Source: the human T2T-CHM13v2.0 reference genome, Homo sapiens
Assembly (NCBI GenBank): GCA_009914755.4
Contig: CP068257.2
Span: 992,001 to 1,056,000, forward strand
Direction of reading: 5' to 3'
DNA length: 64,000 nucleotides
How positions within the stretch are numbered: the first letter of the stretch is position 1; every line of letters begins with the position of its first letter. Below, piece by piece: positions 1-64,000 of the stretch. The notes beneath the pieces were generated by a model. The model saw nothing but the letters and a program-made list of their open reading frames with translations, was not told the DNA's origin and did not search any database. The position numbers and the translations under genes are program-made.

Positions 1-2325
1 TACAGGGTGTTTTGTGAACTATCCCTGCAATGGTCACCCAGGTGATGTACCACTTGTCAACGCTCTGCCTACAGGGGCATTGCGAGATATGTCTGCACTG
101 ATCACCTAGGTCAAGTAACTCTTTTATAAGCTCTGCCAACAGTGGCATTCTGACATATCTCTGCACTGATCACCCAGGTGACGTAACTCTTTTCTAGGAT
201 CTGCTTACAGGGTGCTTGGTGACATATCCCTGCAATGATCACCCAGGTGATGTACCACTTGTCAAGGCTCTGCCTACAGGGACATTGCGTTTTATCTCTG
301 CACTGATCACCTAGGTCATGTAACTCTTTTCTAGGCTCTGCCTATAGTGGCATTGTGACATATCTCTGCCCTGATCATCCAAGTGATGTAACTATTGTCT
401 AGGATCTGCCTAAAGGGACTTTGTGACATAACTCTGCACTGATCATCCAGGTGATGGGGCTTTTGTCTAGGCTCTCCTAAGGAGGCATTGTGACATATTT
501 TTGCACTGATCACCCAGGTGATGGACTCCTGTCTTGGATCTGCCTATGGGGGCATTGTGACATATCTCTGCACTGATCACACAGGTGATGTAACTGTTGT
601 ATAAGCTCTGCCTACAGGAGAATTGTGAGAGATCTCCCCACTTATCACTCAATTGATGTAACTATTGTCTAGGGTTTGCCTAAAGGGGGCTTTGTGACAT
701 ACCTTTTCACTGGTCACCCAGGTGATGTAACTCATCTAAGTTCTGCCTACAGAAGCTTTCTGAGATATCGCTGCACTGATCACTTAGGTGATGTAACACT
801 TTTATAAGCACTGCCTACAGGGAATTTTGACAAATCTCTGCACTGATAACGTAGGTGATGTAACTCTTTTCTAGGATCTGCCTACAGGGTGCTTTGTGAC
901 ATATCCCTGCAATGATCACCCAGGTGATGTACCACTTCTCAAGGCTCTGCCTACAGGGACATTGCGAAGTATCTCTGCACTGATCTCCGAGGTCATGTAA
1001 CTCTTGTCCACTCTCTGCCTATAGGGGGCATTGTGAAATATCTCTGCACTGATCACCCAGGTGTTGGGACTCTTCTCTATACTCTGCCTATAGGGGAATT
1101 TGTGACATACCTCTGCACTCATCACCCACGTGATGGAAGACTTGTCTGGTCTCTGTCTATGGTGGCATTGTGTCAAATATCTGCACTGATCACCCAGGTG
1201 ATTTAACTCTTGTCTAGGCTCTGTCTACAGGGATTTGTGTGACATATCACTGCACTGATCACCTAGATGATGTAAGCCTTGTTTAGGTTTGCCTACAGAA
1301 GGCTTTGTGACATATCTATGCACTGATCTCTGAGGTGATGCTACTCTTGTCTAGGCACTGCCTACAGGGGACATTGGTACATATCTCTGCACTGATCACC
1401 CAGGTGATGGACACTTGTCTTAGATCTGCCTACATGGACATTGTGACACATCTCTGAACTGATCAACCAAGTGATGAAATTCTTGTCTAGGCTCTGCCTT
1501 CAGGGCCTTTGTGACACATCTCTGCACTGATCACCCTGGGGAGGGAACTCTTGTCTACGCTCTGCCTACAGGAGGCTTTATGACTTTTACCTGCACTGAT
1601 AACCCAGGTGATGTAACACTTGTCTAGGCTCTGCCTACACGGGAATTCTCACATATCTCTGTACTGATCACCCGGGTGATGTAATTCCTTTCTAGGTTCA
1701 GCCTACAGGAGCGTTTTGACATATCTCTGCACTGATCACCCAGATGATGTAACCCTTGTCTAAGCTCTGCCTACAGGGGCATTGTGACAGATCTCTCCAC
1801 TGCTCACCCAGGTGATGTAACAATTGTCTGGGCTTTGCCTACAGGGGGCTTTGTGATATACATTTCCACTGATCAAACAGGTGATGTAACCCTTGTCAAG
1901 GTTCTGCTTACAGGGGCTTTGTGACATATCTCTACACTGATCACCCCAGGGAGGAAACACTTGTCTACTCTATGTCTACAGGAGACTTTACGACTTATCC
2001 CTGCACTGATCACTAGGTGATGTAACACTTGTCTAGGATCTGTCTGCACGGGAATTTTCACATATCGCTACATTGATCACCTAAGTGATGTAACCCTTGT
2101 TTACGTTCAGCCTACTGGGGATTTCTGACATAACTATGCACTGATCAACGAGTTGATGTATATCATTTCCAGGCTTTTGGTACAGGGGACATTGTGATGT
2201 ATCTCTGCACTGATCACCCAAATGATGCAAACCTTCTCTAGGCTCCGCACGGAGGAGGCATTGTGACATATTTCTGTACTGATCATCCAGGAGATTTAAC
2301 TATTCTCCAGGCTTTGACTAAAGAG
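1..2325. repeat. Beta-satellite array (68-bp Sau3A/GATC monomers), orientation A (monomer reads gatcacccaggtgatgtaac...ctgcact on the + strand). The last ~1.15 kb is the conserved proximal-flank monomer series P1-P17 preceding a D4Z4-like unit.
   Basis: Visible 68-bp periodicity: gatcacccag gtgatgtaac tcttgtctag gctctgccta caggggcatt gtgacatatc tctgcact = 68 bp, repeated head to tail with 10-25% divergence. AT-rich; GATC at each monomer start. Confidence 0.9.
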
Positions 2326-3025
2326 CTTCGGAAGGTGTTGCGAGAGCCTCAGCTGGAATTTCACGGATGGACAAGGGCACAGAGAGGCCAGCGGACTCCC
2401 TTGCACGTCAGCCCGAGCACGCAATGAACGCAGGTCTAACCAGGAGTCCGGCAAAGACGGCTAGAGGTCTGCGTTCCGCCGCCAGCCTCTCCATGGTGGC
2501 AGCTGGGAGGCTGCAGGGGCACGGAAGGGCCAGCGACGGTGGTGTGGAGGCACAGAGGAGGCGAGCTGCCGGAGGGGTGTCAGGCCTGGACGCTGCGTGG
2601 GCCCAGTGTTTTGCAGGATGTGGGTCTCCACCCAGCCCAGGGGAAGATTCATTTTCCTTGGGTGGGTGGTGGGGTTGGTGAGGGTGTGGTCAGGCGGGGG
2701 TGGGTTGCTGGAAAGGCATGATAACTCTGTCCAGCTGCTCCCAAAGCTCAGGCGGCTGCCCGCAAACCCGCGCGTGCGCAGTGGGCGGCCCACCTGCTGG
2801 TACCTGGCCCGGAACTGGTATCCCCGGGATGCCCAGGAAAGAATGGCAGTTCTCAGCTGTGTGTAGTCCCTCACCGGGCCTGGACCAAGAAGGCAGGAAT
2901 CCCAGGCCGGTCAGTCCAGTGAAGGGGGCGTGGGGAAGACACGCCCCTCCATAGCCAGCCAGGTGTTCCCTGCGATATAGAGGCCACCGCCCTGCCCCGA
3001 CCCGACCCCGTCCCAACCCCGCGTC

Positions 3026-4465
<1,440 letters not shown>

Positions 4466-5090
4466 TCATGAATGGTGGTGAGCCCTGGGACAGCCCGCCC
4501 CACCCCGGAATGGTCCCAGGGCATCGAGGTCTGTGGCCGGGGGGTGGTGTGATGGGGTGGGAGGGCGTGGTGATGGTGGTGGTGGGGCCGGAGAGACGAA
4601 GAGGAAGGGGGCAGGGGGGAAGGGGTGAGGGGGGCGCGTTTCACGGGCTGGCTCTCCGGACCTCTCCAGGAATCCCTCGGGAAATGGAAGCCGCTCTCTG
4701 GGCTCCCACGCGTCTTCAGCAGGGAGAAACCGGCCTGGGAGTGTGGAGGCGAGTGTGGAACTGAACCTCTGTGGGAGTCTTGAGTGTTCCAGGCCCTCTC
4801 TCCGTGAAGGAGGCAGTGCCTGTGGGTGTCTCCGTTGCTGGGACAGTCTGACACACGCAGGCATGTGGCTCTCATTCATTTCCACGTAGGAGACCAGAGC
4901 GAGAACCCAGAGAGAAGATGTCTCCCCGGCGTGATGGTCTGACGATGGATTCCCGTGTGCGGCAACATGGGGAGTCTGCAGTGTGGACGGTTTGGAAACT
5001 GGCAAGGAGAGCGAAAGCACCCCGCCGGTCTTCCACCATTCCCTGCATGTTTCCCGGTGCCGGCAGAGCTCTGGGAGCAAAGAGTCAGCC

Positions 5091-8000
5091 TGAAACATCT
5101 CTGAACGGATCAACAAAGTGATGTAAGTCTTGTCTAGACTCTGCCTACAGGGGCTTTGTGATGTATCTCTGCACTGATCACCCAGGTGATGGGACACTTG
5201 TCTAGGCTCTGCCTATGACGGCATTGTGACATATCTCTACACTGACCACCAAGGTGATGTGAGTCTTTTGTTGGATCTGCCTCTGGGGGCATTGTGATAT
5301 ATTTCTGCACTGATCATCCAGGTGATGGGACTCTAGTCTAGGCTGGGTGTATGGGGCTTTGTGACATACCTTTGCACGGACCACCCAGGTGATGTAACTC
5401 ATCTAAGTTCTGCCTACAGGAGCTTTGTGACATATCTCTGCACTGATCACTTAGGTGATGTAACACTTTTATAAGCACTGCCTACAGGGAATTTTGACAA
5501 ATCTCTGCACTGATCACCTAGGTGATGTAACTCTTGTCCGCCCTCTGCCCAAAGGGGCATTGTGAAATATCTCTTAACTGATCACTCAGGTGATTCAACT
5601 CCTGTGTAGGATCTGCCTACAGCAGCGTTTTCACATATCCCTGAAATGATGACAAAGGTGATGTAACTCTTGCCTAGGCTTTGCCTACAGGGCACATTGT
5701 GACATATCTCTGCACTGATCACCCAGGTGATGCAATTCTTCTCTATGCTCTGCCTACAGGGGACATTGTGACATATCACTTCACTGATCACCCAGGTGAT
5801 GCAGCTCTTCTCTATGCTCTGCCTCCAGGGGTCATTGTGATATACCTCTTCACTGATCACCCAGGTGATGTAACTCTTGTCTAGGTTCTGCTTACAAGGG
5901 GTATTGTGACATATCTCTGCACTGATCACCTAAGTGATGTAACACTTGTGTAGGCTATGCCTACAGGGGCATTTAGACATATCTCTGCACTGTTAACCGA
6001 GGTGATGTAACTCTTGTCTAGGCTGTGCCCACAGGGTGATTGAGACATATCTCTGCACTGATCCCGAGGTTATCCAACTCTTGCTTGGTCTCTGCCTACT
6101 GGGGATATTGTGACATATCTCTGCACTGATCTCCCAGGTGCAGTAACTTTATTCTAGGCTCTGGCTACACTGCATTGTGACATATCACTGCACTGATCAT
6201 CCAAGTGATATAACTCTTGTCTAGTCTCTGCATACAGGATTCTTGTGACATATCTCTGCACTGATCACCCAGGTGATGTAACTGTTGTATAAGCCCTGCC
6301 TACAGGGGAATTATGAGAGATCTCGCCACTGATCACCGAAGTGATGTAACTATCGTCAAGGCTTTGCCTACAGGGGGCTTTGTGACATACCTTTGCACTG
6401 ATCACCCAGGTGATGTAGCTCATCTAAGTTCTGCCTACAGGAGCTTTGTGACATATCTCTGCACTGATCCCTTAGGTGATGTAATATTTTTATAAGCACT
6501 GCTACCGGGAATTTTGAAAAATCTCTGCACAGAACACCTAGGTGATGTAACTCTTGTCTACCCTCTGCCCAAAGGGGGCATTGTGAAATATCTCTGCACT
6601 GATCCACTAGGTGATGTAACTAGTGTCTATGCTCTGCCTACAGGGGCGTTTTCACATATCCCTGAACTGATGACAAAGGTGATGTAACTCTTGCCTAGGT
6701 TTTGCCTACAGGGCAAATTGTGACATATCTCTGCACTGATAACCCAGGTGATGCAACTCTTGTCTAGGATCTGCCTACAGCAGAATTTTCACATATCCCT
6801 GAACTGATGACAAAGGTGATGGAACTCTTGCCTAGGCTTTGCCTACAGGGGAAATTGTGACATATCTCTGCACTGATAACCCAGGTGATGCAACTCTTCT
6901 CTATGCTCTGCCTACAGGGGACATTGTGACATATCTCTGCACTGATAACCCAGGTGATGTAACTCTTGTCTAGGCTCTGATTACAGGGGGTATTGGGACA
7001 TATCTCTGCACTGATCACCTAAGTGATGTAACACTTGTGTAGGCTATGCCTACAGGGGCATTTTGACATATCTCTGCACTGTTAACCGAGGTGATGTAAC
7101 TCTTCTCAAGGCTGTCCCCACAGTGGGATTGAGACATATCTCTGCACTGATCCCGAGGTGATCCAACTCTTGCCTGGTCTCTGCCTACTGGGGACATTGT
7201 GACATATCTCTGCACTGATCTCCCAGGTGCAGTAACTTTAGTCTAGGCACTGGCTACATGGCATTGTGACATATCACTGCACTGATCACCCAGGTGTTAT
7301 AACTCTTGCCTAAGCTCTGCCTACAGGGTTCCTGTGACATATCTCTGCACTGATCATCCAGGTGATATAACTCTTCTTTAGGATCTGCCTACAGGGTGCT
7401 TTATGACATATCCCTGCAAAGATCACCCAGGTGATATACCCCTTGTCAAGGCTCTGCCTACAGGGGCATTGCGATGTATCTCTGCACTGATCACCTAGGT
7501 CATGTAACTCTTGTCTAGGCTCTGCCTACAGTGGCATTGTGACATATCTCTTCACTGATTACCCACGAGATGTAACTCTTTTCTAGGATCTGCCTACAGG
7601 GTGCTTGGTGACATATCCCTGCAATGATCAACCAGGTGATGTACCACTTGTCAAGGATCTGCCTACAGGGACATTGCAATGTATCTCTGCACTGATCACC
7701 TAGGTCCTGTAACTCTTTTCTAGGCTCTGCCTACAGTGGCATTGTGACATATCTCTGCACTGATCATCCAAGTGATGTAACTCTTGTCTAGGATCTGCCT
7801 AAAGGGACTTTGTGACATAACTCTGCACTGATCATCCAAGTGATGGGGCTTTTGTCTAGGCTCTGCCTAAGGGGGCATTGTGACATATTTCTGAACTGAT
7901 CAACCAGGTGACGGACTCTTGTCTTGGATCTGCCTATGGGGGCATTGTGACATATCTCTGCACTGATCACCCAGGTGATGCAAGTGTTGTATAAGCTGTG

Positions 8001-9720
8001 CCTACAGGGAAATTGTGAGAGATCTCTCCACTGACCATCCAAGTGATGTAACTATTGTCTAGGCTTTGCCTACATGGGGCTTTGTGACATACCTTTGAAC
8101 TGATCACACAGGTGATATAACTCATCTAAGTTCTGCCTACAGGAGTTTTGTGATATATCTCTGCACTGATCACCCAGGTGATGTAACTTTTGTCTAGGCT
8201 CCACCTACAAGGAGTATTGTGACGTATCTCTGCACTGATCACTCATGTGATGTAACTGTTGTCTAGGCTCCACCTACAGGGTGTATTGTGGCGTATCTCT
8301 GCAGTGATCGCGCTGGTGATGTAACATTTATCCAGGTGCTGCCTACTGGGGAGCTTTGACATAGCTCTGCACAGATCACCTAGGTTATGTAACCCTTGTC
8401 GACTCTCTGCCTACAGGGGGCATTGTGAAATATCTTTGCACTGATCACCCGTGTGATGGGACTCTTCTCTATACTCTGCCTATAGGGGGATTTGTGACAT
8501 ATCTGTGCACTGATCACCCAGGTGATGGAAGTCTTGTCTAGGCTCTGTCTATGGGAGCATTATGTCAAATATCTGCACTGATCACCCAGGTGATGTAACT
8601 CTTGTCTAGGCTCTGTCTACAGGGATTTTTGTGACATATCACTGCACTGATCACCTAGGTGGTGTAAGCCTTGTATGGGCGTTGCCTACAGAAGGCTTTG
8701 TGGCATATCTATGCTCTGATCTGTGAGGTGATGCATCTCATGCCTAGGCACTGCCTACAGGGGACATTGGTACATATCTCTGCACTGATCACCCAGGTGA
8801 TGGACCCTTGACTTAGATCTGCCTACATGGACATTGTGACACATCTCTGAACTGATCAACCATGTGATGAAACTCTTGTCTAGGATCTGACTACAGGGAC
8901 TTTGTGACACATCTCTGCACTGATCACTCTGGGGAGGGAACTCTTTTCTATGCTCTGCCTTCAGGAGGCTTTACGACTTATAACTGCACTGATAACCTAG
9001 GTGATGTAATACTTGTCTAGACTCTGCCTACACTGGAATTCTCACATATCTCTGCAATGATCACCCAGTTGATGTAACTCCTGTCTAGGTTCAGCCTACA
9101 GGAGCGTTTTGACATATGTCTGCACTGATCACCCAGGTGATGTAACCCTTGTCTAAGCTGTGCCTACAGGGGCATTGTGACAGATCTCTCCACTGCTCAC
9201 CCAGGTGATGTAACAATTATCTTGGCTTTGCCTACAGGGGGCTTTCTGATATACATTTCCACTGATGAAACAGGTGATGTAACCTTTGTCAAAGTTCTGC
9301 TTACAGGGGCTTTGTGACATATCTCTGTACTGATCACCCCAGGGTGGAACCACTTTTCTGCACTCCGCCTACAGGAGGCTTTACGACTTATCCCTGCACT
9401 GATCACTAGGTGATGTAATACTTGTCTAAGCTCTGTCTACAAGGGAATTTTCACATATCTCTATACTGATCACCTAAGTGATGTAACCCTTGTCTAGGTT
9501 CAGCCTACTGGGGATTTCTGACATACCTATGCACTGATCACTGAGGTGATGTAAATCATTTCCAGGCTTTCTGTACGGGGGACATTGTGATATATCTCTG
9601 CACTTATCACCCAAATGATGCAAATGTTTTCTAGACTCCACAGGGAGAGGGCATTGTGACATATTTCTGAACGGATCATCTAGGAAGATGTAACTATTCT
9701 CCAGGCTTTGACTAAAGAGC
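5091..9720. repeat. Beta-satellite array, orientation A, about 68 monomers. Begins with distal-flank monomers D1 onward and ends with proximal-flank monomers P1-P17.
   Basis: 68-bp periodicity. The same monomer variants, in the same order, follow and precede each D4Z4-like unit. Examples: gatgggacacttgtctaggctctgcctatg at 5190; cactgctcacccaggtgatgtaacaatt at 9190. Confidence 0.9.
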
Positions 9721-10419
9721 ATCGGAAGGTGTTGGGAGAGCCTCAGCCGGAACTTCATGGATGGACAAGGGCACAGAGAGGCCAGCGGGCTCCCTTGCAC
9801 ATCAGCCGGGGTGCCCAATGAGCGCAGGTCTAGCCAGGAAGCCGGCAAAGAGAGCTAGAGGTCTGCGTTCTGCCGCCAGGTGCTCCATGGTGGCAGCTGG
9901 GAGGCTGCAGGGGTACGGGCGGGTCGGCGACAGTAGCGTGGAGGCGCAGAGGAGGCAAGCCACTGAGGGGTGACAGGCCTGGACGCTGCGCGGGCCCGGT
10001 GTTTCATGGGATGGGGGTCTCCACCTATCCCAGTGGAGGACTCATTTCCTGGGGGTGTGGGGTAGGGTTTGGGTGGGGGTGGTCAGCCGTGGGTGGGTTG
10101 GTGGAAAAGCATGAGAGCTCTGTCTGGGCTGCTCCCACAGCACAGGCGGCTGCCCGCAAAGCCGCGCGTGCACAGTAGGCGGCACACATGCTGGTACCTG
10201 TGCCGGCTCTGGGATCCCCGTGATGCCCAGGAAAGAATGGCAGTTCTCCACTGTGAGGAGCCTCTAACCCGGCCTAGACCTAGAAGGCAGGAATCCCAGG
10301 GCGGTCAGCCCGGTGGAGGGAGCGTGGGGAAGACACGCCCCTCCATACTCAGCCAGGTGTTCCCCGTGAAAGAGAGGCCACCGCCCTACCCAGACCCGAC
10401 CACGACCCCACCCTGCGTC

Positions 10420-11858
<1,439 letters not shown>

Positions 11859-12480
11859 TCATGAATGGCGGTGGGCCTTGGGACAGCCCGCCCCACACCG
11901 GTAGGTTCCCAGGGCTTAGAGGCCTGCGGCCGGGGATGGTTTCGTGGAGGGGGGGAGGGCGTGGTGATGGTGGTCGTGGGGTCAGAGAGACGAAAGGAAG
12001 GGGGCGATGGGGAAGGGGTAACGGTGCCGCGTTTCGGGGGCTGGATCTCCGGACCTTTCCAGGAATCCCGCGGGAACTGGAAGCCACTCTCTGGGCACCC
12101 ACGCATCATCAGCAGGGAGAAACCGGCTTGGGACGGTGGAGGGGAGTGTGGAACTGAACCTCCAATGCAGTCTTGAGTGTTCCAGGCCCTCTCTCCGTGA
12201 AGAAGAGTTCCTGTTGGTGTCACCGTTACCGGGACAGTCTCACACGCCCAGGCTTGTGGCTCTCGTTCATTTCCGTGCAGGAGACCAGAGTGAGATCCCA
12301 GAGAGAAGATGCAACCCGGCGTGATGGCCTGATGATGGATTCCCGTGTGTGACAACATGGGGAGTCTGCAGTGTGGCCGGTTTGGAAACTGGGAAGGAGA
12401 GCGAAGGCACCGTGCCGGTCTTCCACCCTTCCCTGCATGTTTCCGGGTGCCCGCATAGCTCCGGCAGCAAACAGTCAGCA

Positions 12481-21400: not shown

Positions 21401-22591
21401 AAGTCTTGCCTAGGCTCTGTCTATGGGGGCATTGTATCAAATATCTGCACTGATCCCCCAGGTGTTGTAACTCTTGTCTAGGCTCTGTCTACAGGGATTT
21501 TTGTGACATATCACTGCACTCATCACCTAGGTGATGTAAGGCTTGTATGGGCTTTGCCTACAGAAGGCTTTGTGACATATCTATGCACTGACCTCTGAGG
21601 TGATGCAACTCTTGTCTAGGCACTGCCTACAGGAGACATTGGTACATCTCTCTGCACTGATCACCCAGGTGATGGCCTCTTGTCTTATATCTGCTTACAT
21701 GGACATTGTGGCACATCTCTGAACAGATCGAGCAAGTGATGAAACTCTTGTCTAGGCTCTGCCTACGGGGGCTTTGAGTACACATCTCTGTACTGATCAC
21801 CCTGGGGAGGGAACTCTTGTCTACTCTCTGCCTACAAGAGGCTTTATGACTTATACCTACACTGGTAACCTATGTGATGTAACACTTGTCTAGGCTCTGT
21901 CTACACGGGAATTCTCACATGTCTCTGCACTGATCACCCGGGTGATGGAACTCCTGTCTAGGTTCAGCCTACAGGAGGGTTTTGACATATCTCTGCACTG
22001 ATCATCCAGGTGATGTAACCCTTTTCTAAGCTCTGCCTCCAGGGGCATTGTGACAGATCTCTCCACTGCTCAACCAGGTGATGTAACAATTGTCTGGACT
22101 TTGCTTACAGGGGGCTTTGTGATATAAAATTCTAGTGATCAAACAGGTGATGTAACCCTTGTCAAGGTTCTGCTTACAGGGGCTTTGTGACATACCTCTG
22201 CACTGATCACCCCAGGGAGGAAACATTTGTCTACACTCTGACTACAGGGGGCTTTAGGACTTATCCCTGCACTGATCACTAGGTGATGGAACACTTGTCT
22301 AGGCTCTGTCTACATGGGAATTTTCACATATATCTACACTGATCACCTAAGTGATGTAACCCTTGTCTAGGTTCAGCCTATTGGGGATTTCTGACATACC
22401 TATGCACTGATCACCGAGGTGATGTAAATCATTTCCAGGCTTTTTGTACAGGGGACATTGTGATATATCTCTGCACTGATCACCCAAATGATGCAAATAT
22501 TCTCTAGGCTCCGCAGGGAGGGGGCATTGTGATATATTTCTGAACTGATCATCCAGGAGATGTAACTATTCTCCAGGCTTTGAGTGAAGAG
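12481..22591. repeat. Beta-satellite array, orientation A, about 10.1 kb (roughly a double-length interval). Contains a 542-bp tandem duplication and a unit-less flank junction.
   Basis: 68-bp periodicity throughout. Distal-flank signature at 12570-12900; proximal-flank series P1-P17 at 21430-22591. Confidence 0.9.
16020..17105. repeat. Tandem duplication of an 8-monomer (~542 bp) beta-satellite block. Copy 1 is about 16020-16563 and copy 2 about 16563-17105; near-identical.
   Basis: The string ctgcctacagggggcattgtgaaatatctctgcactgatcacccaggtgatgggactcttct.tatactctgcctatagggggatttgtgacatatatctgcacggatcacccaggtgatggaagtcttgtctaggctctgtctatggg recurs at ~16025 and ~16565, and the following ~480 bp are also near-identical. 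Confidence 0.75.
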
Positions 22592-27317: not shown

Positions 27318-30833
<3,516 letters not shown>

Positions 30834-40082: not shown

Positions 40083-41490
<1,408 letters not shown>

Positions 41491-42140
41491 CCTGCAGGCA
41501 GGCAGGCTCCACCCCTTCATGAATGGCGGTGAGCCCTAGGACAGCCCGCCCCACCCCGGAAGTGTCCCAGGGCATCGAGGCCTGCGGTTGGGGGTTGGTG
41601 GGTTGGGGGGGGACGGCGTGGTGATGGTGGTTGTGTGGCCGGAGAGACGAAGAGGAAGGGGGCGAGGGGGAAGGGGTGAGGGGCGCGCGTTTCGGTGACT
41701 GGCTCTCCGGACCTCTCCAGGAATCCCGCGGGAACTGGAAGCCGCTCTCTGGGTTCCCACTCATCTTCAGCAGGGAGAAACCGGCCTGGGAGTGTGGAGG
41801 TGAGTGTGGAACTGAACCTCCATGTGAGTCTTGAGAGTTCCAGGACCTCTCTGCGTGAAGGAGGCAGTGCCTGTGAATGTCGCCACTGCTGGGACAGTCT
41901 CACACGCATAGGGGTGTGGCTCTCGTTCATTTCCACGTAGGAGACCAGAGCGAGACCCCAGAGAGAAGATGCCTCCCCGGCGTGATGGTCTGACAATGGA
42001 TTCCCGTGTGCGGCAACATGGGGAGTCTGCAGTGTGGCCGGTTTGGAAACTGGCAAGGAGAGCGAAGGCACCATGGGTGTCTTCACCCCTTTCCTGCATG
42101 TTTCCGGGTGCCCTCAGAGCTCCAGGAGCAAACAGCCAGC

Positions 42141-51100: not shown

Positions 51101-51526
51101 GTTCTGCTTACAGGGGCTTTGAGACATATCTCTGCACTGATCACCCCTGAGAGGAAACACTTGTCTACACTCTGCCTACAGAAGGTTTTATGACTTATCC
51201 CTGCACTGATCACTATGTGATGTAACACTTGTCTAGGCTCTGTCAACACGGGAATTTTCACATATCTCTACACTGATCACCTAAGTGATGTAACCCTTGT
51301 CTAGGTTCAGCCTACTGGGGATTTCTGACATACTTATGCACTGGTCACTGAGGTGATGTAAATCATTTCCAGGCTTTTTGTACAGGGGACATTGTGACAT
51401 ATCTCTGCACTGATCACACAAATGATGCAAATCTTCTCTTGGCTCTGCAGGGATGGGGTATTGTGACATATTTCTGAACAGATCATCCAGGAGATGTAAC
51501 TATTCTCCAGGCTTTGACTAAAGAGC
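42141..51526. repeat. Beta-satellite array, orientation A, about 9.4 kb (a double-length interval). Contains a clean unit-less P0/D1 hybrid junction near 46636.
   Basis: 68-bp periodicity. Distal-flank monomers at 42240-42500; proximal-flank series at 50370-51526. Confidence 0.9.
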
Positions 51527-52222
51527 GTCGGAAGGTGTTGGGAGAGCCTCAGCTGGAAATTCACAGAGGGACAAGGGCACAGAGAGGCCAGCGGGCTCCC
51601 TTGCACGTCAGCCGGGGTGCGCAATGAGCGCAGGTCTAGCCAGGAGGATGGCAAGGAGAGCTAGAGGTCTGCGTTCCGCTGGCAGGCGCTCCATGGTGGC
51701 AACTGGGAGGCTGCCGGGGCATGGGCGGGTTGGCGACGGTGGCGCGGAGGCGCAGAAGAGGCGACCCACCAGAGGGCTGTCAGGCCTGGATGCTGCGCGG
51801 GCCCGGAGTTTCACGGGACAGGGGTCTCCTCCCAGCCAAGGGGAGGACACATTTTCCGGGGGTGGGGTTTGGGGTGGGGGTGTGGTCAAGCGGGGGTGGG
51901 GTGGTGGAAAGACATGAGAGCTCTGCACGGGCTGCTCCCACAGCCCAGGTGGCTGCCCGCAAACCCGCACCTGTGCAGTAGGCGGCCCACATGCTGGTAC
52001 CTGGTCAGGCTCTGGAATCCCCAGGATGCCCAGGAAAGAATGGCAGTTCTCTGCTGTGTGGAGCCTCTCACCGGGCCTAGACATAGAAGGCAGGAATCCT
52101 AGGTCAGTCAGCCCGGTGGAGGGGGCGGGGAGAGGGCACGCCCCTCCATAGCCATCCAGGTGTTCCCGGCGAAATAGAGGCCACCGCCCTGCCCCGACCC
52201 GATACCTTCCCAACCCTGCGTC

Positions 52223-53891
<1,669 letters not shown>

Positions 53892-54265
53892 TCAGCAGGG
53901 AGAAACCGGCCTGGGAGGGTGGAGGAGAGTGTGGAACTGAACCTCCGTGGGAGTCTTGAGTGTTCCAGGCCCTCTCTCCGTGAAGGAGGCCGTGCCTGTT
54001 GGTGTCTCCGTTGCCAGGACAGTCTCACACACGCAGGCGTGTGGCTCTCGTTCATTTCCACGTAGGAAACCAGAGCGAGATCCCAGAGAGAAGATGCCTC
54101 CCCGGCGTGATGACCTGATGATGGATTCCCGTGTGCGGCAACATGGGTAGTCTGCAGTGTGGCCAGTGTGGAAACTGGCAAGGAGAGCGAAGGCACCATG
54201 CCGGTCTTCCCCCCTGCCCTGCATGTTTCCGGGTACCCGTAGAGCTCCGGGAGCAAAGAGTCAGC

Positions 54266-57200
54266 ATGACACATCTCTGAACTGATCAACAAAGTGATGT
54301 AACACTTGTCTAGGCTCTGCCTACATCGGCTTTGTGACATATCTCTGCACTGATCACCCAGGTAATGGGACTCTTGTCTAGGCTGTGTGTATGGGGGCTT
54401 TGTGACATATCTCTGCACTGATCACCCAGGTAATGGGGCTCTTGTCTAGGCTGTGTGTATGGGGGCTTTGTGACATATCTCTGCACTGATCACCCAGGTG
54501 ATGTAACGCTTGACTAGGCTCTGCCTACGGGGCATAGTGACATATCACTGCATTGATCACTGAGGTGATGTAACTCTTGTCCAGGCTCTGCCTATAGGGG
54601 GCCTTGTGACATATCTCTGGACTGATCATCTAGGTGATGTAACTGTTGCTTATGCTCTGCCTGCAGGGACATTGTGAAATATCTCTGCACTGATCCCCTA
54701 GGTGATGGGACACCTCTCTAGGCTCTGCCTACTGGGGGCATTGTCACATATTTTTGCACTGATCACCCAGGTGATGGACTCTTGTCTTGGATTTGCCTAG
54801 GGGGTCATTGTGACATATCACTGCACTGATCACCCAGGTGATGTAACCCTGGTTTAAGCTCTGCCTAAAGGGGCATTGTGACAGATCTCTGCACTGATCA
54901 CTCAGGTGATGTAACTATTGCCTAGGCTCTGCTTAAAGAGGCCTTGTCACTTATCTCTACACTGATCACCCAGGTGATGTAACTATTGTCTAGGATCTGC
55001 TTTCAGGGGGTATTGTGACATATCTCTGCATGGATCACCTAAGTGTTGTAACACTTGTGTAGGCTCTGCCTACAGGGGCATTTTGACATATCTCTGCACT
55101 GTTAAAAGAGGTGATGTAACTCTTGTCTAGGCTGTGCACATAGGGGGATTGAGATATATCTCTGCACTGTTCCCGAGGTGATCCAACTCTTGCCTGGTCT
55201 CTGCCTACTGGGAAAATTGTGACATATATCTGCACTGATCTCCCAGGTGCTGTAAATTTAGTCCAGGCTCTGGCTACATGGCATGGTGACATATCACTGC
55301 ACTGATCACCCTGCTGATATAACTCTTCTCTAGGATCTGCCTACAGGGTACTTTGTGACATATCCCTGCAATGGTCACCCAGGTGATATACCACTTGTCA
55401 AGGCTCTGCCTACAGGGACATTGCGATGTATCTCTGCACTGACAACCTAGGTCATATAACTCTTGTCTAGGATCTGCCTACAGTGGCATTGTGACATATC
55501 TCTGCACTGATCATCCAAGTGATGTAACATTTGTCTAGGATCTGCCTAAAGGGACTTTGTGACATAACTCTCCACTGATTATCCAGGTGATTGGGCTTTT
55601 GTCAAGGCTCTGTCTAAGGGGGCCTTGTGACATATTTCTGCACTGATCACACACGTGACGGACTCTTGTCTTGGATCTGCCTGTGGGGGCATTGTGACAA
55701 ATCTCTGCACTGATCACTCAGGTGTTGTAACTGTTGTATAACCTCTGCCTACAGGGGAATTGTGAGAGATCTCGCCACTTATCAACCAAGTGATGTAACG
55801 ATAGTCTAGGCTTTCCCTACAGGGTGCTTTGTGACATACCTTTGTACTGATCATCCAGCTGATGTAACTCATCTAAGTTCTGCCTCCAGGAGCTTTGTGA
55901 CATATCTCTGCACTGATCACTTATGCGATGTAACAGTTTTATAAGCACTGCCTACAGGGAATTTTGACAAATCTCTGCACTGATCACCTAGGTGATGTAA
56001 CTCTTGTCTACCCACTGTGCAAAGGGGTCATTGTGAAATATCTCTGCACTGAACACCCACGTGATTCAACTCTTGTTTAGGATCTGCCTACAGGGGGTAT
56101 TGTGAAATATATCTGCACTGATCAACTAGGTGATGTAACTCTTGTCTAGGCTCTGCCCTCAGGGGCATTTTCACATATCACTGAACTGATGACAAAGGTG
56201 ATGTAACACTTGCCTAGGCTTTGCCTACAGGGGCATTGTGACATACCTCTGCACTGATCACTCAGGTGATGCAACTCTTCTCTATGTTCTGCCTACAGGG
56301 GGCATTGTGACATATCTCTGCACTGATCACCCAGGTGATGTAACTCTTCTCTAGTCTCTGCCTACAGAAGGCGTTGTGACATCACTCTGCACGGATCACC
56401 CGTGTTATGTAACTCTTGTCTAGGCTCTGCCTACCGGGGCATTGTGACTTATCTCTGCACTGATCACCCAGGAGATGTGACTCTTTTCTAAGCTATGCCT
56501 AGAGGGACATTGGGACATATCTCTTCACTGATCGCTGACGTGATGTAAAACTTGTCTTGGATTTGCCTACAGTGGGATTTATGACATATCTCTGCACTGA
56601 TCACCCAGGTGATGTAACTCTTGTCTATGCTCTGCTTACAGGGCGTATTGTGAGATATCTCTGCACTGATCACCCAGTTTATGTAACTCTTCTCTAGGCT
56701 CTGCCTATAGGGGCATTTTCACATATCACTGCACTGATCAACGAGATTATGTAACTTTTGTATAGGCTTTGCTGACAGGGGGCATTGAGACATATCTCTG
56801 CACTGATCACTGAGGTGATGCAACTCTTCTCTGGGATCTGCTTACAGGGGGCATTGTGACATATCTCTTCCTTGATCATCCAGGTGATGTAACTCTTGTC
56901 TAGGCTCAGCCTACTCGAGGAATTGTGAGATATCTCCGCACTGATCACCCAGGTGATGTCACTTTTTTCAAGGATATGGCTACAGGGACATTGTGACGTG
57001 TCACTGCACTGATCACACAGCTGATGTAACACTTGTCTAGGCTCTGGCTACAGAGGGCTTGTGACATATCTCTGCACTGATAACCCAGGTAATGTAACAT
57101 TTATCCAGCCTCTGCCTACAGGGGCGTTTTGACATAGCTCTGCACAGATCACCTAGGTTATGTAACTCCTGTCCACTCTCTGCCTACAGGGGTCATTGCA

Positions 57201-58490
57201 AAATATCTCTGCTCTGATCACCCAGGTGATGGGACTCTTCTCTATACTCTGCCTAGAGGGGGATTTGCGACATGTATCTGCACTGATCACCCAGGTGATG
57301 GAAGTCTTGTCTAGGGTCTGTCTATGGGGACATTGTGTCAAATATCTGCACTGATCACCCAGGTGATGTAACTCTTGTCTAGGCTCTGTCTACCGGGATT
57401 TTTGTGACATATCACTGCACTGATCACCTAGGTGATGTAAGTCTTGTATTGTCTTTGCCTACAGAGTGCTTTGTGATATATCTATGCACTGATCTCTGAG
57501 GTGATGCAGCTCTTGTCTAGGCACTGCCTACAGGGGACATTGGCACATCTCTCTGCACTGATCACCCAGGTGATGGACTCTTGTCTTAGATCTGCCTACA
57601 TGGTCTTTGTGACACATCTGTGAACTGATCAACCCAGTGATGAAACTCTTGTCTAGGCTCTGCCTACAGGGGCTTTGTGACACATCTCTGCACTAATTGC
57701 CCTGGAGAGGGAACTCTTGTCTAGGCTCTGCTTACAGGAGGCTTTATGACTTTTACCTGCACTGATTACCTAGGTGATGTAACACTTGTGTAGACTCTGC
57801 CTACACTGGAATTCTCACATATCTCTGCACTGATCACCCGGGTGATGTAACTCCTTTCTAGGTTCAGCCTACAGGAGTGTTTTGATATATCTCTGCACTG
57901 ATCACCCAGGTGATGTAACACTTGTCTAAGCTCTGCCTACATGGGCATTGTGACAGATCTCTCCACTGCTCACCCAGGTGATGTAACAATTCTCTGGGAT
58001 TTGCCTACAAGGGGCTTTGGGATATACATTTCCACTGATCAAACAGGTGATGTAACCCTTGTCAAGGTTCTGCTTACAGGGGCTTTGAGACATATCTCTG
58101 CACTGATCACCCCTGAGAGGAAACACTTGTCTACACTCTGCCTACAGAAGGCTTTACGACTTATCCCTGCACTGATCACTAGGTGATGTAACACTTGTCT
58201 AGGCTCTGTCTACACGGGAATTTTCACATATGTCTACACTGATCACCTAAGTGATGTAATCCTTGTCTAGGTTTAGCCTACTGGGGATTTCTGACATACC
58301 TATGCACTGATCACCGAGGTGATGTAAATCATTTCCAGGCTTTTTGTACAGGGGACATTGTGATATATCTCTGCACTGATCACCCAAGTGATGCAAATCT
58401 TCTCTAGCCTCCGCAGGGAGGGGGCATTGTGACATATTTCTGAACTGACCATCCAGGAGATGTAACTATTCTCCCGGCTTTGACTAATGA
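54266..58490. repeat. Beta-satellite array, orientation A, about 4.2 kb (about 62 monomers). Starts with duplicated D1-like monomers (54340-54460) and ends with P1-P17.
   Basis: 68-bp periodicity; proximal-flank series 57340-58490. Confidence 0.9.
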
Positions 58491-59191
58491 GCGTTGGAAG
58501 GTGTTGGGAGAGCCTCAGTCGGAATTTCACGGACGGACAAGGGCACAGAGAGGCCAGCGGGCTCCCTTGCACGTCAGCCGGGGTGCGCAATGAGCGCAGG
58601 TCTAGCCAGGAGGCTGGCAAAGAGAGCTAGAGGTCTGCGTTCCGTTGCCAGGCGCTCCATGGTGGCAGCTGGGAGGCTACAGGGGCACGGGCGGGCTGGC
58701 GATGGTGACGCAGAGGCGCAGAGGAGGTGAGCTGCCGGAAGGGTGTCATGCCTGGATGCTGCGTGGACCCGATGTTTCACGGGACGGTGGTCTCCACCCA
58801 GGCCAGGGGAGGACGCATTTTCCGGGGGTGGGGGGTGGGGGTGGGAAGGGTGTTGTCAGGAGTGGGAGGGGTGTTGGAAAGGCAAGAGAGCTCTGCCCGG
58901 GCTGCTCCCAAAGCCCAGGTGGCTGCCCGCAAACCCGCGTGTGCGCAGAAGGTGGCCCAACTGCTGGTACCTGGGCCGGCTCTGGGATCCCTGGGTTGTC
59001 CACGAAAGAATGGCAGTTCTCCGCTGTGTGGAGCCTCTCATCAGGCCTACACCTAGAAGGCAGGACTCACAGCCCGGTCAGCCCGGTGGAGAGGGCAGTG
59101 GAACACACGCCCCTCCATAGCCAGCCAGGTGTTCCCCGCGAAAGAGAGGCCACCGCCATGCCCCGACACGACCCCATCCCAACCCCGCGTC

Positions 59192-61215
<2,024 letters not shown>

Positions 61216-61245
61216 TCAGAGCTCCAGGAGCAAACAGTCAGCATG

Positions 61246-64000
61246 ACACATCTCTGAACTGATCAACAAAGTAATGTAACTCTTGTCTAGGCTCTGCCTA
61301 CAGGGGCTTTGTGACATATCTCTGCAGTGATCACCCAGGTGATGGGACCTTTGTCTAGGCTCTGCCTATGGGGGCATTGTGACATATCTCTACACTGATC
61401 ACCAAGGTGATGCAACTCTTGTGTTGGATCTGCCTATGGGGGCATTGTGACATATTTCTGCACTGATCACCCAGGTGATGGGACATTTGTCTAGGCTCCG
61501 TGTATGGGGGCTTTGCGACATATCTGATCACTGATCACCCAGGTGATGTAACCCTTGACTAGGCCCTCCCTACGGGGCATAGTGACATATCACTGTATTG
61601 ATCACTGAGGTGATGTAACTCTTGTCCAGGCTCTCCCTCTAGGGGGCCTAGTGACATATTTCTGCACTGATCATCTAGGTGATGTAACTCCCTCTGACAC
61701 TCTACCTGCAGGGGCACTGTGAAATATCTCTGCACTGATCATCCAGGTGATGGGACTCTTCTCTAGGCTTTGCCTACTGTGGGCATTGTCACATATTTCT
61801 GCACTGATCACCCAGGTGACGGACTCTTGTCTTGTATTTGCCTATGGGGACATTGTGACATATCTCTGCACTGATCACCCACGTGATGTAACTCTGGTCT
61901 AAGCTCTGCCTAAAGGGGCATTGTGAGAGATCTCTGCACTGATCACTCAGGTGATGTAACTATTGTCTAGGCTCTGCTTAAAGGGGCCTTGTCACATATC
62001 TGTTAACTGATCACCCAGGTGTTGTAACCCTTGCCTAGGCTCTGCCTACAGGAGCTTTGTGACATATCTCTGCACTGATCACTTAGGTGATGTGACACTT
62101 TTATAAGCAGTGCCTACAGGGAATTTTGACAAATCTCTGCACTGATCACTTAGGTGATGTAATTCTTGTCTACCCTCTGCCCAAAGGGGGCATTGTGAAA
62201 TGTCTCTGCTCTGATCACCCAGGTGATTCAACTCCTGTCTAGGATCTGCCTACAGGAGAATTGTGAAATATCTCTGTACTGATCAACTAGGTGATGTAAC
62301 TCTTGTCAAGGCTCTGCCTACAAGGGCGTTTTCACATATCCCTGAACTGATAACAAAGGTGATGTAACGCCTACAGGGGACATTGTGATATATAGCTGCA
62401 CTGATAACCCAGGTGATGCAACTCTTCTCTATGCTCTGCCTACAGGGGACATTGTGTCATATCTCTGCACTGATCACCCAGGTGATGCAACTCTTCTCTA
62501 TGCTCTGCCTACAGGGGACATTGTGACATATCTCTGCACTGATCGCTGAGATGATTTAAAACGTGTCTAGGCTTTGCCTACAGTGGGATTTATGACATTT
62601 CTCTGCACTGGTCACCGATGTGATGTAACTCTTCTCTAGGCTCTGCTTAAAGGGGCTATTGTGAGATATCTCTGCACTGATCACCCAGGTGATGTAACTC
62701 TTGTCTAGGCTATGCCTACAGGTGCATTTTCACATATCACTGCACTGATCACCGAGATTATGTAACTCTTGTAAAGGCTTTGCCAACAAGGGGCATTGAG
62801 ACATGTCTCTGCACTGATTACCGAGGTGATGCAACTCTGGTCTGGTATCTGCCTACAGGGGGCATTGTGACATATCTTTGCCCGGAACACCCAGATGATG
62901 TAACTCTTGTCTAGGCTCTACCTACAGGAGGCATTGTGACATATCTCCGCACTGATCACCCAGGTGATGTCATTTTATCAAGGATATGGCTACAGCGATA
63001 TTGTGACATCTCACTGCACTGATCACACAGGTGATGTAACATTATCTAGGCTCTGCCTACCGTGGCGTTTTGACATAGCTCTGCACAGATCACCTAGGTT
63101 ATGTAACTCTTGTCCACTCTCTGCCTACAGGGGGCATTGTGAAATATCTCTGCACGGATCACCCAGGTGATGGGACTCTTCTCTATACTCTGCCTAGAGG
63201 GGAATTTGTGACATATCTCTGCACTGATCAACCAGGTGATGGAAGTCTTGTCTAGGCTCTGTCTATGGGGACATTGTGTCAAATATCTGCACTGATCACC
63301 CAGGTAATGTAACTCTTTCCTAGACTCTGTCTACAGGGATTTTTGTGACATATCACTGCACTGATCACCTAGGTGATGTAAGCCTTGTATGAGCTTTGCC
63401 TACAGAAGGCTTTGTGACATATCTATGCACTGATCTCTGAGGTGATGCAACTCTTGTCTAGGCACTGCCTACATTGGACATTGGTACATATCTCTGCACT
63501 GATCACCCAGGTGATGGACTCTTGTCTTAGATCTGCCTACATGGACATAGTGACACATCTCTGAACTGATCAACCAAGTGATGAAACTATTGTCTAGGCT
63601 CTGCCTACAAGGGCTTTGTGACACATCTCTGCACTGATCACCCTGCTGATGTAAGTCTGGTCTAAGGTCTGCCTAAAGGGGCATTGTGACAGATCTCTGC
63701 ACTGATCACTCCGGTGATGTAACTATTGTCTAAGCTCTGCTTTAAGGGGCTTTGTCACATATCTCTGCACTGATAACCCAGGTGATGTAACACTTCTCTA
63801 CGCTCTGCTTACAGGGAGTATTGTGTCTTATCTCTGCACTGATCACCTAAGTGATATAACTATTGTGTAGGCTCTGCCTACAGGGGCATTTTGACATATC
63901 TCTGCACTGTTAACCGAGGTAATGTAACTCTTGTCTAGGCTGTGCCCACAGGGGGATTGAGACATATCTCTGCCCTGATCCCGAGGTGATCCAACTCTTG
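61246..64000. repeat. Beta-satellite array, orientation A, running to the window edge. The proximal-flank monomer P1 appears at about 63280, so a further D4Z4-like unit is predicted about 400 bp beyond the window end.
   Basis: 68-bp periodicity. Distal-flank monomers at 61340-61700; gtcaaatatctgcactgatcacccaggtaatgtaactc at 63280. Confidence 0.85.

What the first reader, a model, noticed from the sequence alone, without database searches (positions are those of the whole stretch)
1..64000. Composite higher-order repeat: a D4Z4-like/DUX4-like unit fixed at one position in a beta-satellite higher-order repeat
The same diverged series of about 17 beta-satellite monomers (P1-P17, about 1.15 kb) precedes every D4Z4-like unit (1170, 8570, 21430, 38280, 50370, 57340 and, unit-less, 16180/16730 and 63280). 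The same D1-D4 series follows each unit (5190, 12570, 31540, 42240, 54360, 61340). So a D4Z4-like unit plus about 62-68 monomers amplified together as a period of about 7.0-7.4 kb (unit 1 to 2 is 7.4 kb; unit 7 to 8 is 7.0 kb). This is the beta-satellite/3.3-kb-repeat organisation known from acrocentric short arms and other heterochromatic sites, not the 4q35/10q26 tandem D4Z4 array. The units are dense CpG islands inside AT-rich satellite and would be expected to be heavily methylated and heterochromatic. No prokaryotic or defence-system content is present.
Basis: partly seen in the sequence, partly recalled or inferred. Interest (0 to 1): 0.5.

Follow-up and report, generated by a model that had tools for sequence, protein, structure and literature searches.

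The report
Known beta-satellite / D4Z4-like composite array

Summary
All 64,000 bases are either 68-bp beta satellite (653 monomers) or one of seven GC-rich blocks of about 2.76 kb. The blocks carry a DUX4-family double homeobox on the minus strand.

- **Junctions:** the beta-satellite/unit junction is base-for-base the same on the D side in 7 of 7 copies. It is the same on the P side in 6 of 6 forward copies.
- **Ordered flanks:** about 20 ordered monomer variants precede each unit, at 0.856 identity in register against 0.75 out of register (z about 29). At least 4 follow it.
- **Divergence:** units are about 86% identical in every pair and P flanks about 91%. A five-fold excess of CpG transitions explains the gap.
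- **Not a regular higher-order repeat:** spacings are 7.39, 12.87, 12.10 and 6.97 kb. There are unit-less deletion junctions with different breakpoints and a 6.25-kb inverted segment (22922-29170).
- **Coding state:** only unit 6 keeps an intact ORF. It is 170 aa and DUX1/DUX5-like.

This matches the published LSAU-BETA / LSAU-BSAT composite (Hoyt, Altemose, Butterfield). Verdict: real, correctly interpreted, already known, low interest.

The parts
12..2327 (+). Beta-satellite block, 34 monomers. Module A is at 12-1030 and the P series at 825-2327.
   Evidence: TRF period 68. Monomer segmentation and module runs.
2328..5089 (-). Unit 1. A D4Z4-like element with a DUX4-like pseudogene on the minus strand, roughly 4372 to 3092, with 4 stop codons in the homeodomain region.
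5090..9720 (+). Beta-satellite spacer of 68 monomers, used as the reference series R1-R68. R49-R68 is the P series (8217-9720).
9721..12477 (-). Unit 2. DUX4-like pseudogene with 3 stops.
12478..22585 (+). Beta-satellite spacer of about 149 monomers. In order it holds: a D series; a partial P series with a local 548-bp duplication (16003-16618 against 16551-17166, 95.8%); a unit-less P|D junction; the D and A modules; and a complete P series at 21089-22585.
17472..17745 (+). Unit-less junction. The P series, reaching about monomers P62-65, is joined to the start of the D series. The unit and about 3-6 P monomers are missing.
   Evidence: Runs 160-177 against 532-549, 176-190 against 613-627, and 177-195 against 552-570. 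Index map.
22586..22922 (-). Unit 3. Only the first about 330 bp next to the P side remain, cut off by the inversion breakpoint at 22922.
   Evidence: query 1-457 aligns to 22466-22922.
22922..29170 (.). Inverted 6.25-kb segment with three parts: a unit fragment at 22922-23947; 50 beta-satellite monomers in reverse orientation at 23948-27325 (D and A modules, no P series); and a unit fragment at 27326-29170.
   Evidence: Minus-strand alignments. TRF gives the reverse-complement consensus over 23953-27320. AT skew changes sign over 24001-29000.
28014..29498 (+). A 494-codon open frame in the inverted unit. It is DUX4-like for about 380 aa and has GTG where DUX4 has its ATG. At about 29170 it runs across the inversion breakpoint into antisense unit sequence.
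29171..31452 (-). Unit 4. It lacks the first about 500 bp of the P side. DUX4-like pseudogene with 5 stops.
31453..39429 (+). Beta-satellite spacer of 117 monomers. It holds module duplications and a P56-58|R28-13-14 deletion junction near 33770-33970. The P series is at 37930-39429.
39430..42138 (-). Unit 5. DUX4-like pseudogene with a frameshift and stops.
42139..51527 (+). Beta-satellite spacer of 137 monomers. It holds a unit-less P49-51|D3-4 junction (about 46411-46620), a unit-less P50-58 copy (46753-47846), and a complete P series at 50024-51527.
51528..54263 (-). Unit 6. The only unit that has near-identical relatives (98.9-99.3% DNA identity) among the human-derived contigs fetched.
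52962..53474 (-). Intact 170-aa double-homeodomain ORF of DUX1/DUX5 type.
   Evidence: Translation. Pfam. 98-99% identical to P0001 and P0002, whose cluster holds human DUX5 Q96PT3. The exact protein occurs on human gut metagenome contigs.
54264..58493 (+). Beta-satellite spacer of about 62 monomers in the order D, A, P. This is the most compact full period in the window. The P series is at 56991-58493.
58494..61240 (-). Unit 7. DUX4-like pseudogene with 1 stop.
61241..64000 (+). Beta-satellite block with a D series and then a P series starting at 62934. The window ends before the next unit would begin.
   Evidence: 894-1848 aligns to 63001-63955. Also.

Best explanation
This is a stretch of the human LSAU-beta-satellite composite satellite, made of divergent, 5'-truncated D4Z4-like (D4Z4-pLAM type) units interspersed with 68-bp beta satellite.

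**Shown:**
- An ancestral composite repeat was amplified as one piece. It consisted of one 2.76-kb D4Z4-like element, an ordered series of beta-satellite variants on its DUX-upstream side (D, then module A), and about 20 ordered variants on its DUX-downstream side (P).
- Every copy therefore shares the same two junctions and the same ordered flanks.

**Inferred:**
- Amplification was an old burst by unequal crossing-over. All unit pairs are about equally diverged (86%), as are all P flanks (91%), so there has been no recent homogenisation inside this window.
- The array was later reshaped in three ways. Unequal exchange between flanking monomers removed units, leaving solo P|D junctions with different breakpoints. 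Modules were duplicated. A 6.25-kb segment with both breakpoints inside units was inverted.
- The units are methylated heterochromatin. Their CpGs decay by deamination, which is why they diverge faster than their flanks and why six of seven DUX reading frames are broken.
- The likeliest site is an acrocentric short arm or a pericentromeric transition region. No specific function beyond heterochromatin need be invoked.
For: - The 68-bp satellite and the GC-rich units together cover 100% of the window.
- Units align to each other over their full length at 85-89%.
- DUX4 family: two homeodomains, DUX4 as the top PDB match, and a DUX5-type ORF in unit 6.
- Junctions are identical.
- Ordered flanks: in-register identity 0.856 against 0.75 out of register, z = 29.
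- 92% of monomers lie in ordered runs of at least 9 monomers that recur in the window. Shuffled monomer order gives 0-5%.
- Distances are star-like: units 0.857-0.868, P flanks 0.906-0.919.
- CpG transitions are 12.9% per cell against 2.5% at non-CpG positions.
- Unit-less junctions have different breakpoints.
- At least 120 contigs, several named as human-associated metagenomes, carry the exact D-side junction 34-mer.
- Literature: the LSAU-BETA composite occurs on 16 chromosomes, with 80-95% within-array identity in centromere transition regions. Beta-composite arrays and many inversion breakpoints are described. There are 319 copies of a 5'-truncated 3.1-kb D4Z4-pLAM, interspersed with BSAT in both orientations and 81-94% methylated.
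Against: - No human reference genome or Dfam library was available, so the LSau and pLAM content and the chromosomal location are not shown directly.
- The unit is 2.76 kb, not the 3.1 kb reported. The difference could be explained if the pLAM part is counted here as the last, diverged P monomers.
- Only unit 6 has near-identical relatives among the fetched contigs. Whether the whole window is duplicated elsewhere is unknown.
- Methylation is inferred, not measured.
Confidence: 0.9

Rival explanations
1. D4Z4-like elements inserted independently and repeatedly into an existing beta-satellite array, for example through a target-site preference. On this view the shared flanks reflect the target, not co-amplification.
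For: Unit-less P|D junctions exist, for example at about 17472-17745. They could be read as empty sites.
Against: - Both junctions are identical to the base in all intact copies.
- Collinearity runs for 20 or more monomers on one side and up to 41 on the other.
- Whole periods align end to end at 86%.
- The unit-less junctions have different breakpoints (P62-65|D1-2, P51|D3, P58|R28). This fits secondary deletions, not one ancestral empty site.
Confidence: 0.03
2. A regular, actively homogenising higher-order repeat with a 7.0-7.4 kb period, like an active alpha-satellite higher-order repeat.
For: Two adjacent unit pairs are 7389 and 6966 bp apart and align over 5.3-6.4 kb.
Against: - The other clean spacings are 12.87 and 12.10 kb.
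- Spacers hold 62 to 149 monomers and are mosaics of modules.
- Copies are only 86-91% identical, with star-like distances.
- The two short spacers are not collinear with each other through their middle.
Confidence: 0.08
3. The irregularities (the inversion at 22922-29170 and the unit-less copies) are assembly artefacts in a collapsed repeat.
For: Satellite arrays are hard to assemble. One fetched short-read contig (L039) shows a different spacing of about 4.5 kb between two units, which may itself be a misassembly.
Against: - Copies differ by 9-14%, so reads place uniquely.
- The inverted arms are as diverged from other copies as any pair (86%).
- Inversions are reported as common in these arrays.
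Confidence: 0.03
4. The window comes from a non-human ape, not from human.
For: DUX1-like proteins are annotated in chimpanzee, bonobo and macaques. No reference genome was searched.
Against: - The exact 170-aa protein of unit 6 is on contigs from human gut metagenomes, and those contigs are 98.9-99.3% identical in DNA.
- The nearest named protein is human DUX5, against 70-78% identity for named ape and monkey proteins.
Confidence: 0.06

Closest known systems
LSAU-BETA / LSAU-BSAT composite repeat of T2T-CHM13 (Hoyt et al., 10.1101/2021.07.12.451456), called 'beta-composite arrays' by Altemose et al. (10.1101/2021.07.12.452052)
   Same: - 68-bp beta satellite is interspersed with LSau/D4Z4-like elements that overlap DUX4-type genes.
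- Within-array identity here (86-91%) falls in the 80-95% range reported for centromere-transition arrays.
- Inversions occur inside the array.
   Different: Nothing substantive. The monomer-level description given here is finer detail, not a different kind of thing. That detail is a fixed P series of 20 monomers, the D and A modules, and solo junctions with different breakpoints.
Divergent 5'-truncated D4Z4-pLAM repeats: 319 copies in CHM13 on acrocentric short arms and pericentric chr1 (Butterfield et al. 2023, PMC10620044)
   Same: - Truncated D4Z4-like units carry diverged DUX4 ORFs.
- They are interspersed with beta satellite in both orientations.
- A pLAM-like side abuts the satellite.
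- High methylation is expected.
   Different: Between its satellite edges the unit measures 2.76 kb, against the reported roughly 3.1 kb. The roughly 0.35 kb difference may be pLAM sequence that I counted as the last P monomers. This was not tested against a reference.
D4Z4 macrosatellite at 4q35/10q26 with the 4qA distal end (D4Z4 - pLAM - 6.2 kb beta satellite)
   Same: - The same DUX4-family double homeobox ORF.
- The same order of DUX ORF, downstream sequence, then beta satellite as at the 4qA distal end.
   Different: - Units are not head to tail.
- GC is 65% against 71%, and CpG/GpC is 0.59-0.67 against 0.8.
- There is no intact 424-aa ORF.
- There is no ATTAAA or AATAAA downstream.
DUX1 / DUX5 genes of dispersed 3.3-kb repeats (Ding 1998 and Beckers 2001, as cited in PMC12376486)
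   Same: Unit 6 encodes a 170-aa two-homeodomain protein. It is 96% identical to DUX5 over 189 aa and 1 residue different from database protein P0122.
   Different: The DUX5 upstream start (MPAEVHG...) is absent here, so the ORF has the 170-aa length I recall for DUX1. Expression is unknown.

Membership tests
LSAU-beta-satellite composite repeat | Tandem beta-satellite monomers of about 68 bp containing a Sau3A (GATC) site | tested here: met
   TRF gives period 68 and a consensus containing TGATCACCCAGGTGATG. There are 653 monomers, mostly 67-69 bp.
LSAU-beta-satellite composite repeat | GC-rich LSau/D4Z4-like elements interspersed within the beta satellite | tested here: met
   Seven GC-rich blocks (64-65% GC) lie between satellite blocks. 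DUX4-family homeoboxes are inside them. LSau sequence as such was not compared, because no reference was available.
LSAU-beta-satellite composite repeat | Within-array identity of 80-95% for arrays in centromere transition regions (Hoyt et al.) | tested here: met
   Units 85.7-86.8%, P flanks 90.6-91.9%. Literature figure.
LSAU-beta-satellite composite repeat | Location on acrocentric short arms or pericentromeric regions of human chromosomes | not testable with these tools
   No human genome collection was available. The only hint is that a DUX5 cluster member sits on a 101,161,492-bp record, which I recall as the length of CHM13 chr14.
LSAU-beta-satellite composite repeat | Uniformly high CpG methylation | not testable with these tools
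   Indirect evidence only. CpG transitions are 12.9% against 2.5% elsewhere. The literature reports 81-94% methylation.
5'-truncated D4Z4-pLAM unit (about 3.1 kb) | D4Z4 lacking about 0.9 kb at the 5' KpnI side, joined to pLAM (DUX4 exon 3 / poly(A) signal region) | tested here: inconclusive
   - The unit is 2.76 kb.
- About 700 bp lie upstream of the DUX ORF and about 760 bp downstream.
- The first P monomers resemble my recollection of the pLAM poly(A) signal region. One search is consistent with that recollection but does not print the sequence.
- No reference sequence was aligned.
D4Z4 macrosatellite array (4q35/10q26) | Head-to-tail tandem array of 3.3-kb units | tested here: not met
   Units are about 2.76 kb and are separated by 4.2-10.1 kb of beta satellite.
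D4Z4 macrosatellite array (4q35/10q26) | Intact DUX4 ORF (424 aa from my memory), 71% GC, CpG/GpC about 0.8 | tested here: not met
   No intact full-length ORF exists in any unit. GC is 64-66% and CpG/GpC 0.59-0.67.
DUX4-family double homeobox genes (DUX1/DUX5 type) | Two paired-class homeodomains in one ORF, closely related to DUX4/DUX5 | tested here: met
   This holds for unit 6 only. Pfam Homeodomain matches twice, E = 1e-33. DUX4 structure 5z6z matches at E = 8e-79. Identity to DUX5 is 96%. The other units have stops or frameshifts.
Regular higher-order repeat (as in active alpha satellite) | Constant period and near-identical (95% or more) copies | tested here: not met
   Clean spacings are 7389, 12873, 12098 and 6966 bp. 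Copy identity is 86-91%. Spacers are mosaics.

The most novel reading that the evidence does not exclude
The poly(A) signal that makes the 4qA allele permissive for FSHD (ATTAAA in DUX4 exon 3 / pLAM) may be a mutated beta-satellite monomer boundary.

In all six intact P-side junctions here, the satellite monomers next to the unit read CAGAAATAT-GTCACA-ATGCCcCCTCC on the DUX strand (ATCACA in unit 3). This is plain beta-satellite consensus. It sits where, as I recall the pLAM sequence, 4qA reads ...ATATTAAAATGCCCCCTCCCTGTGG.

If this is right, this composite preserves the ancestral, non-permissive state, and the disease-relevant signal is an exapted piece of satellite. The reading rests on my memory of the pLAM sequence. 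One search is consistent with it (adenines at protospacer positions 4-7 and a TGG PAM) but does not print the sequence. The idea may already be implicit in existing repeat annotation.
Probability: 0.3. Interest if true: 0.3.

Novelty: already known. Interest (0 to 1): 0.08.

Why it matters
It matters little as a discovery. The composite of beta satellite and D4Z4-like (LSau) elements has been known since the 1990s and was catalogued genome-wide in T2T-CHM13.

The practical value is as a check: the first-stage reader correctly recognised the repeat architecture and the DUX4 relationship from raw sequence alone.

Three details may help people studying these arrays or designing D4Z4/pLAM-targeted assays, for which such paralogues are the main off-targets:
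- the fixed junctions and the 20-monomer P series;
- the solo junctions with different breakpoints;
- the CpG-driven faster decay of the units.

Tried and rejected
- **Anchor-motif segmentation.** A 20-nt anchor motif allowing up to 4 errors found only 59 forward-strand and 11 reverse-strand sites (70 in all), because monomers are only about 77% alike. I replaced it with a wrap-around alignment to the consensus.
- **Rfam.** No match in the window.
- **Placing the locus.** The look-up of encoding contigs for P0002, DUX5 (P0135) and the window's own 170-aa protein returned only short metagenome contigs of 1.4-2.6 kb. The chromosome therefore could not be determined.
- **Unit versus flank distances.** The correlation is r = 0.63, p = 0.05 over 10 non-independent pairs. 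Distances are star-like and differ by less than 1.5%, so this says little.
- **Contig L039.** This 11-kb contig shows two units only about 1.75 kb of satellite apart. I did not use it as evidence for another period, because short-read metagenome assemblies of repeats can be chimeric.
- **First upstream register test.** It wrongly included the inverted partial copy, and its index for unit 7 was off by one monomer, which lowered the averages. The inverted copy was dropped for the repeat test, and unit 7's offset was corrected only at the DNA level.
- **Independent insertion and regular higher-order repeat.** Both were considered and rejected (see the rival explanations).

Full report
**What is in the window**

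Tandem Repeats Finder reports 68-bp repeats (74-78% matches) over every stretch outside seven GC-rich blocks. The array at 23953-27320 has the reverse-complement consensus. GC content alternates between about 46-48% and about 64-68%. Blocks above 56% GC lie at 2283-5227, 9667-12593, 22550-24078, 27306-31496, 39381-42267, 51472-54403 and 58397-61343.

A wrap-around alignment to the 68-mer consensus cut the satellite into 653 usable monomers, mostly 67-69 bp. Their mean pairwise identity is 0.772. Satellite plus GC-rich units account for all 64,000 bases. Rfam finds nothing.

**The units**

With unit 1 and its flanks (2200-5300) as query, full-length matches at 85-87% identity occur at 9593-12690, 39302-42347, 51400-54476 and 58366-61453. 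Partial matches, some on the minus strand, lie between 22466 and 31664. Between the satellite edges a unit measures 2709-2762 bp.

The minus strand carries a DUX4-type reading frame.
- In unit 1 the ORF at 4007-4393 has a homeodomain (Pfam E = 4e-11). The ORF at 3092-3829 reads like what I recall of the DUX4 C-terminal half; it has no Pfam match.
- Unit 6 has an intact 170-aa ORF (53474 to 52962) with two homeodomains (Pfam E = 1e-33).
- The best solved-structure matches for this ORF and for the unit 4-inverted frame are DUX4 double-homeodomain chains (5z6z, E about 1e-78).
- In the large protein collection the nearest relatives are 98-99% identical, and one of those clusters contains human DUX5, Q96PT3. 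Named ape and monkey 'DUX1-like' proteins are only 70-78% identical.
- tblastn with DUX5 shows stops or frameshifts in units 1, 2, 4, 5 and 7.
- The inverted unit has an open frame that lacks the ATG (GTG instead). It is cut by the inversion at about 29170.

So 'D4Z4-like/DUX4-like' is correct. The gene lies on the minus strand, and six of the seven copies are pseudogenes.

**Species**

The exact 170-aa protein of unit 6 is encoded on contigs from human gut metagenomes. Those contigs and their relatives are 97.7-99.3% identical in DNA to unit 6 but only about 85% identical to the other units. I conclude that the window is human. A non-human ape origin is unlikely but not formally excluded.

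For the six forward units I compared the monomers upstream position by position.
- Over 20 monomers the in-register identity is 0.856.
- After sliding the register by 1-8 monomers it is 0.743-0.761.
- Random monomer pairs give 0.772 with SD 0.003 for samples of the same size, so z = 29.

Downstream, the first four monomers match in register in all seven copies (0.89, 0.90, 0.84, 0.83). In many pairs the match runs on for 12-41 monomers.

The junctions themselves are the same.
- The D-side junction aligns at 92% mean column identity across seven copies, including the inverted one (A2).
- The P-side junction is shared by the six forward copies (A1).
- The 34-mer across the D-side junction is found six times in the window (zero expected by chance). 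It is also found exactly in at least 120 metagenome contigs, several of them named as human gut or skin samples.

Whole periods align end to end: 1-6417 against 7390-13809 at 86.0%, 40-6131 against 56196-62284 at 85.5%, and 49811-55101 against 56777-62077 at 86.1%.

**Corrections**

1. The inverted partial copy at 22922-23947 lacks the P series and about 77 bp of the unit end.
2. The P series at 63280 is not unit-less. The unit would start near 64435, beyond the window.
3. A further unit-less P copy at 46756-47776 was missed.
4. The satellite here is 47% GC, not AT-rich, although it is very CpG-poor (observed/expected 0.16).
5. The units are 65% GC with CpG observed/expected of 0.54-0.60. This is borderline for the usual island criterion. 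It is lower than 4q35 D4Z4, which has 71% GC and CpG/GpC 0.8; here CpG/GpC is 0.59-0.67.

**Is it a higher-order repeat?**

Order among monomers is strong. 92% of monomers lie in runs of at least 9 ordered monomers that recur elsewhere in the window. After shuffling monomer order the figure is 0-5%.

The organisation is a mosaic, not a constant period.
- Unit spacings are 7389, 12873, 12098 and 6966 bp, with the rearranged region between units 3 and 4 in the middle.
- Spacers hold 62, 68, 117, 137 and 149 monomers.
- Mapped onto the unit 1-unit 2 spacer as reference, each spacer begins with the D series. It contains one or more copies of a module I call A (about 15-36 monomers: 12-1030, 7401-8285, 18634-21088, 34453-36908, 44229-46000, 55149-56509, and inverted 24880-26172). 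It ends with the P series, R49-R68.
- The long spacers contain remnants of periods that have lost their unit. These are P up to about 62-65 joined to D1-2 near 17472-17745, P49-51 joined to D3-4 near 46411-46620, and P50-58 joined to R28-13-14 near 47436 and again near 33770-33970.

Because these solo junctions have different breakpoints, I read them as secondary deletions by unequal exchange between satellite monomers. They are not ancestral empty sites. The P58|R28 junction occurs twice, which shows that a deleted period was itself duplicated.

**Rearrangement**

The segment 22922-29170 is inverted. Both breakpoints lie inside units. Forward unit position 457 is joined to reverse position 1230. 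Reverse position 1028 is joined to forward position 623. The enclosed satellite (23948-27325) is in reverse orientation. The inverted arms are as diverged from other copies as any pair, at about 86%.

**Age and decay**

All pairs of complete units are 85.7-86.8% identical. All pairs of 1370-bp P flanks are 90.6-91.9% identical. The distances are star-like, so I infer one old amplification followed by independent decay, without recent homogenisation in this window.

The units diverge faster than their flanks because of their CpGs. At consensus CpG positions, 12.9% of cells carry a transition. At other positions the figure is 2.5%, while transversion-type changes are about equal (3.6% against 3.3%).

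**Comparison with what is known**

- Hoyt et al. describe an LSAU-BETA composite on 16 chromosomes. It includes D4Z4 and LSAU subunits and overlaps DUX4 genes. Arrays in centromere transition regions share 80-95% identity.
[quoted passage not shown] - Butterfield et al. count 319 copies of a 5'-truncated, roughly 3.1-kb D4Z4-pLAM sequence. These lie mainly in LSAU-BSAT regions of the acrocentric chromosomes and pericentric chr1, interspersed with BSAT in both orientations. They are about 90% identical to 4q D4Z4 and 81-94% methylated.
- Kim et al. summarise that beta-satellite repeats adjoin LSau 3.3-kb (D4Z4-like) repeats on all acrocentrics and on chromosomes 1, 3, 4, 9, 10 and Y.
- DUX1 and the other DUX genes of dispersed 3.3-kb repeats were described in 1998-2001, as cited.

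Every feature of this window fits that family. It is not the 4q35/10q26 array.

**Limits**

No human reference genome or repeat library could be searched. The chromosome, the LSau and pLAM content and the methylation state are therefore inferred. The unit here is 2.76 kb against the published roughly 3.1 kb. The difference would be explained if the pLAM part corresponds to the last, most diverged P monomers, which I have not shown.

**Verdict**

The thing is an already described kind of human satellite, so interest is low.

Noticed in passing
window 52962-53474 (-), unit 6 at 51528-54263: Unit 6 is the only unit with an intact double-homeodomain ORF (170 aa, DUX1/DUX5 type). It is also the only one with near-identical relatives (98.9-99.3% DNA identity) among the fetched human-derived contigs; the other units reach at most about 93%. 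It is nevertheless as diverged from its neighbours (86%) as they are from each other. This suggests that this unit type was separately amplified or homogenised elsewhere in the genome.
   Followed up: partly
window 2240-2330 (-), and the equivalent P-side junctions of units 2, 3, 5, 6 and 7: On the DUX strand, the satellite monomers next to the unit read CAGAAATAT-GTCACA-ATGCC.CCTCC (ATCACA in unit 3). This resembles my recollection of the 4qA pLAM poly(A) signal region (..ATATTAAAATGCCCCCTCCCTGTGG). No AATAAA or ATTAAA lies in the last 300 bp of any unit or in the 400 bp of satellite downstream of it on the DUX strand. These copies therefore lack the FSHD-permissive poly(A) signal.
   Followed up: partly
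window 28014-29498 (+): A 494-codon open frame in the inverted unit is DUX4-like for about 380 aa without a stop. It has GTG at the DUX4 start position. It reads through the inversion breakpoint at about 29170 into antisense sequence of the neighbouring unit.
   Followed up: partly
window 22922 and 29170: Both inversion breakpoints are fold-back-like joins inside units. Forward position 457 is joined to reverse 1230, and reverse 1028 to forward 623. Undoing the inversion would still leave a roughly 570-bp gap and a roughly 600-bp duplication. I did not analyse microhomology at the joins.
   Followed up: no
window 16003-17166: A young local duplication of 8 monomers (548 bp) lies inside the unit-less P series. 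16003-16618 matches 16551-17166 at 95.8%, much higher than any other intra-window match.
   Followed up: no
locus L039 (11,087-bp metagenome contig), about 3360-10677: Two D4Z4-like units are separated by only about 1.75 kb (about 26 monomers) of beta satellite. This gives a period of about 4.5 kb, different from any in the window. It could be a genuine shorter variant of the composite or a short-read misassembly.
   Followed up: no
window 33631-34997 and 47232-48596: The same deletion junction (P56-58 joined to the R28-13-14-31 module) occurs in two different spacers, within a shared run of 20 monomers at 0.873 identity. A unit-less period was therefore itself copied.
   Followed up: partly
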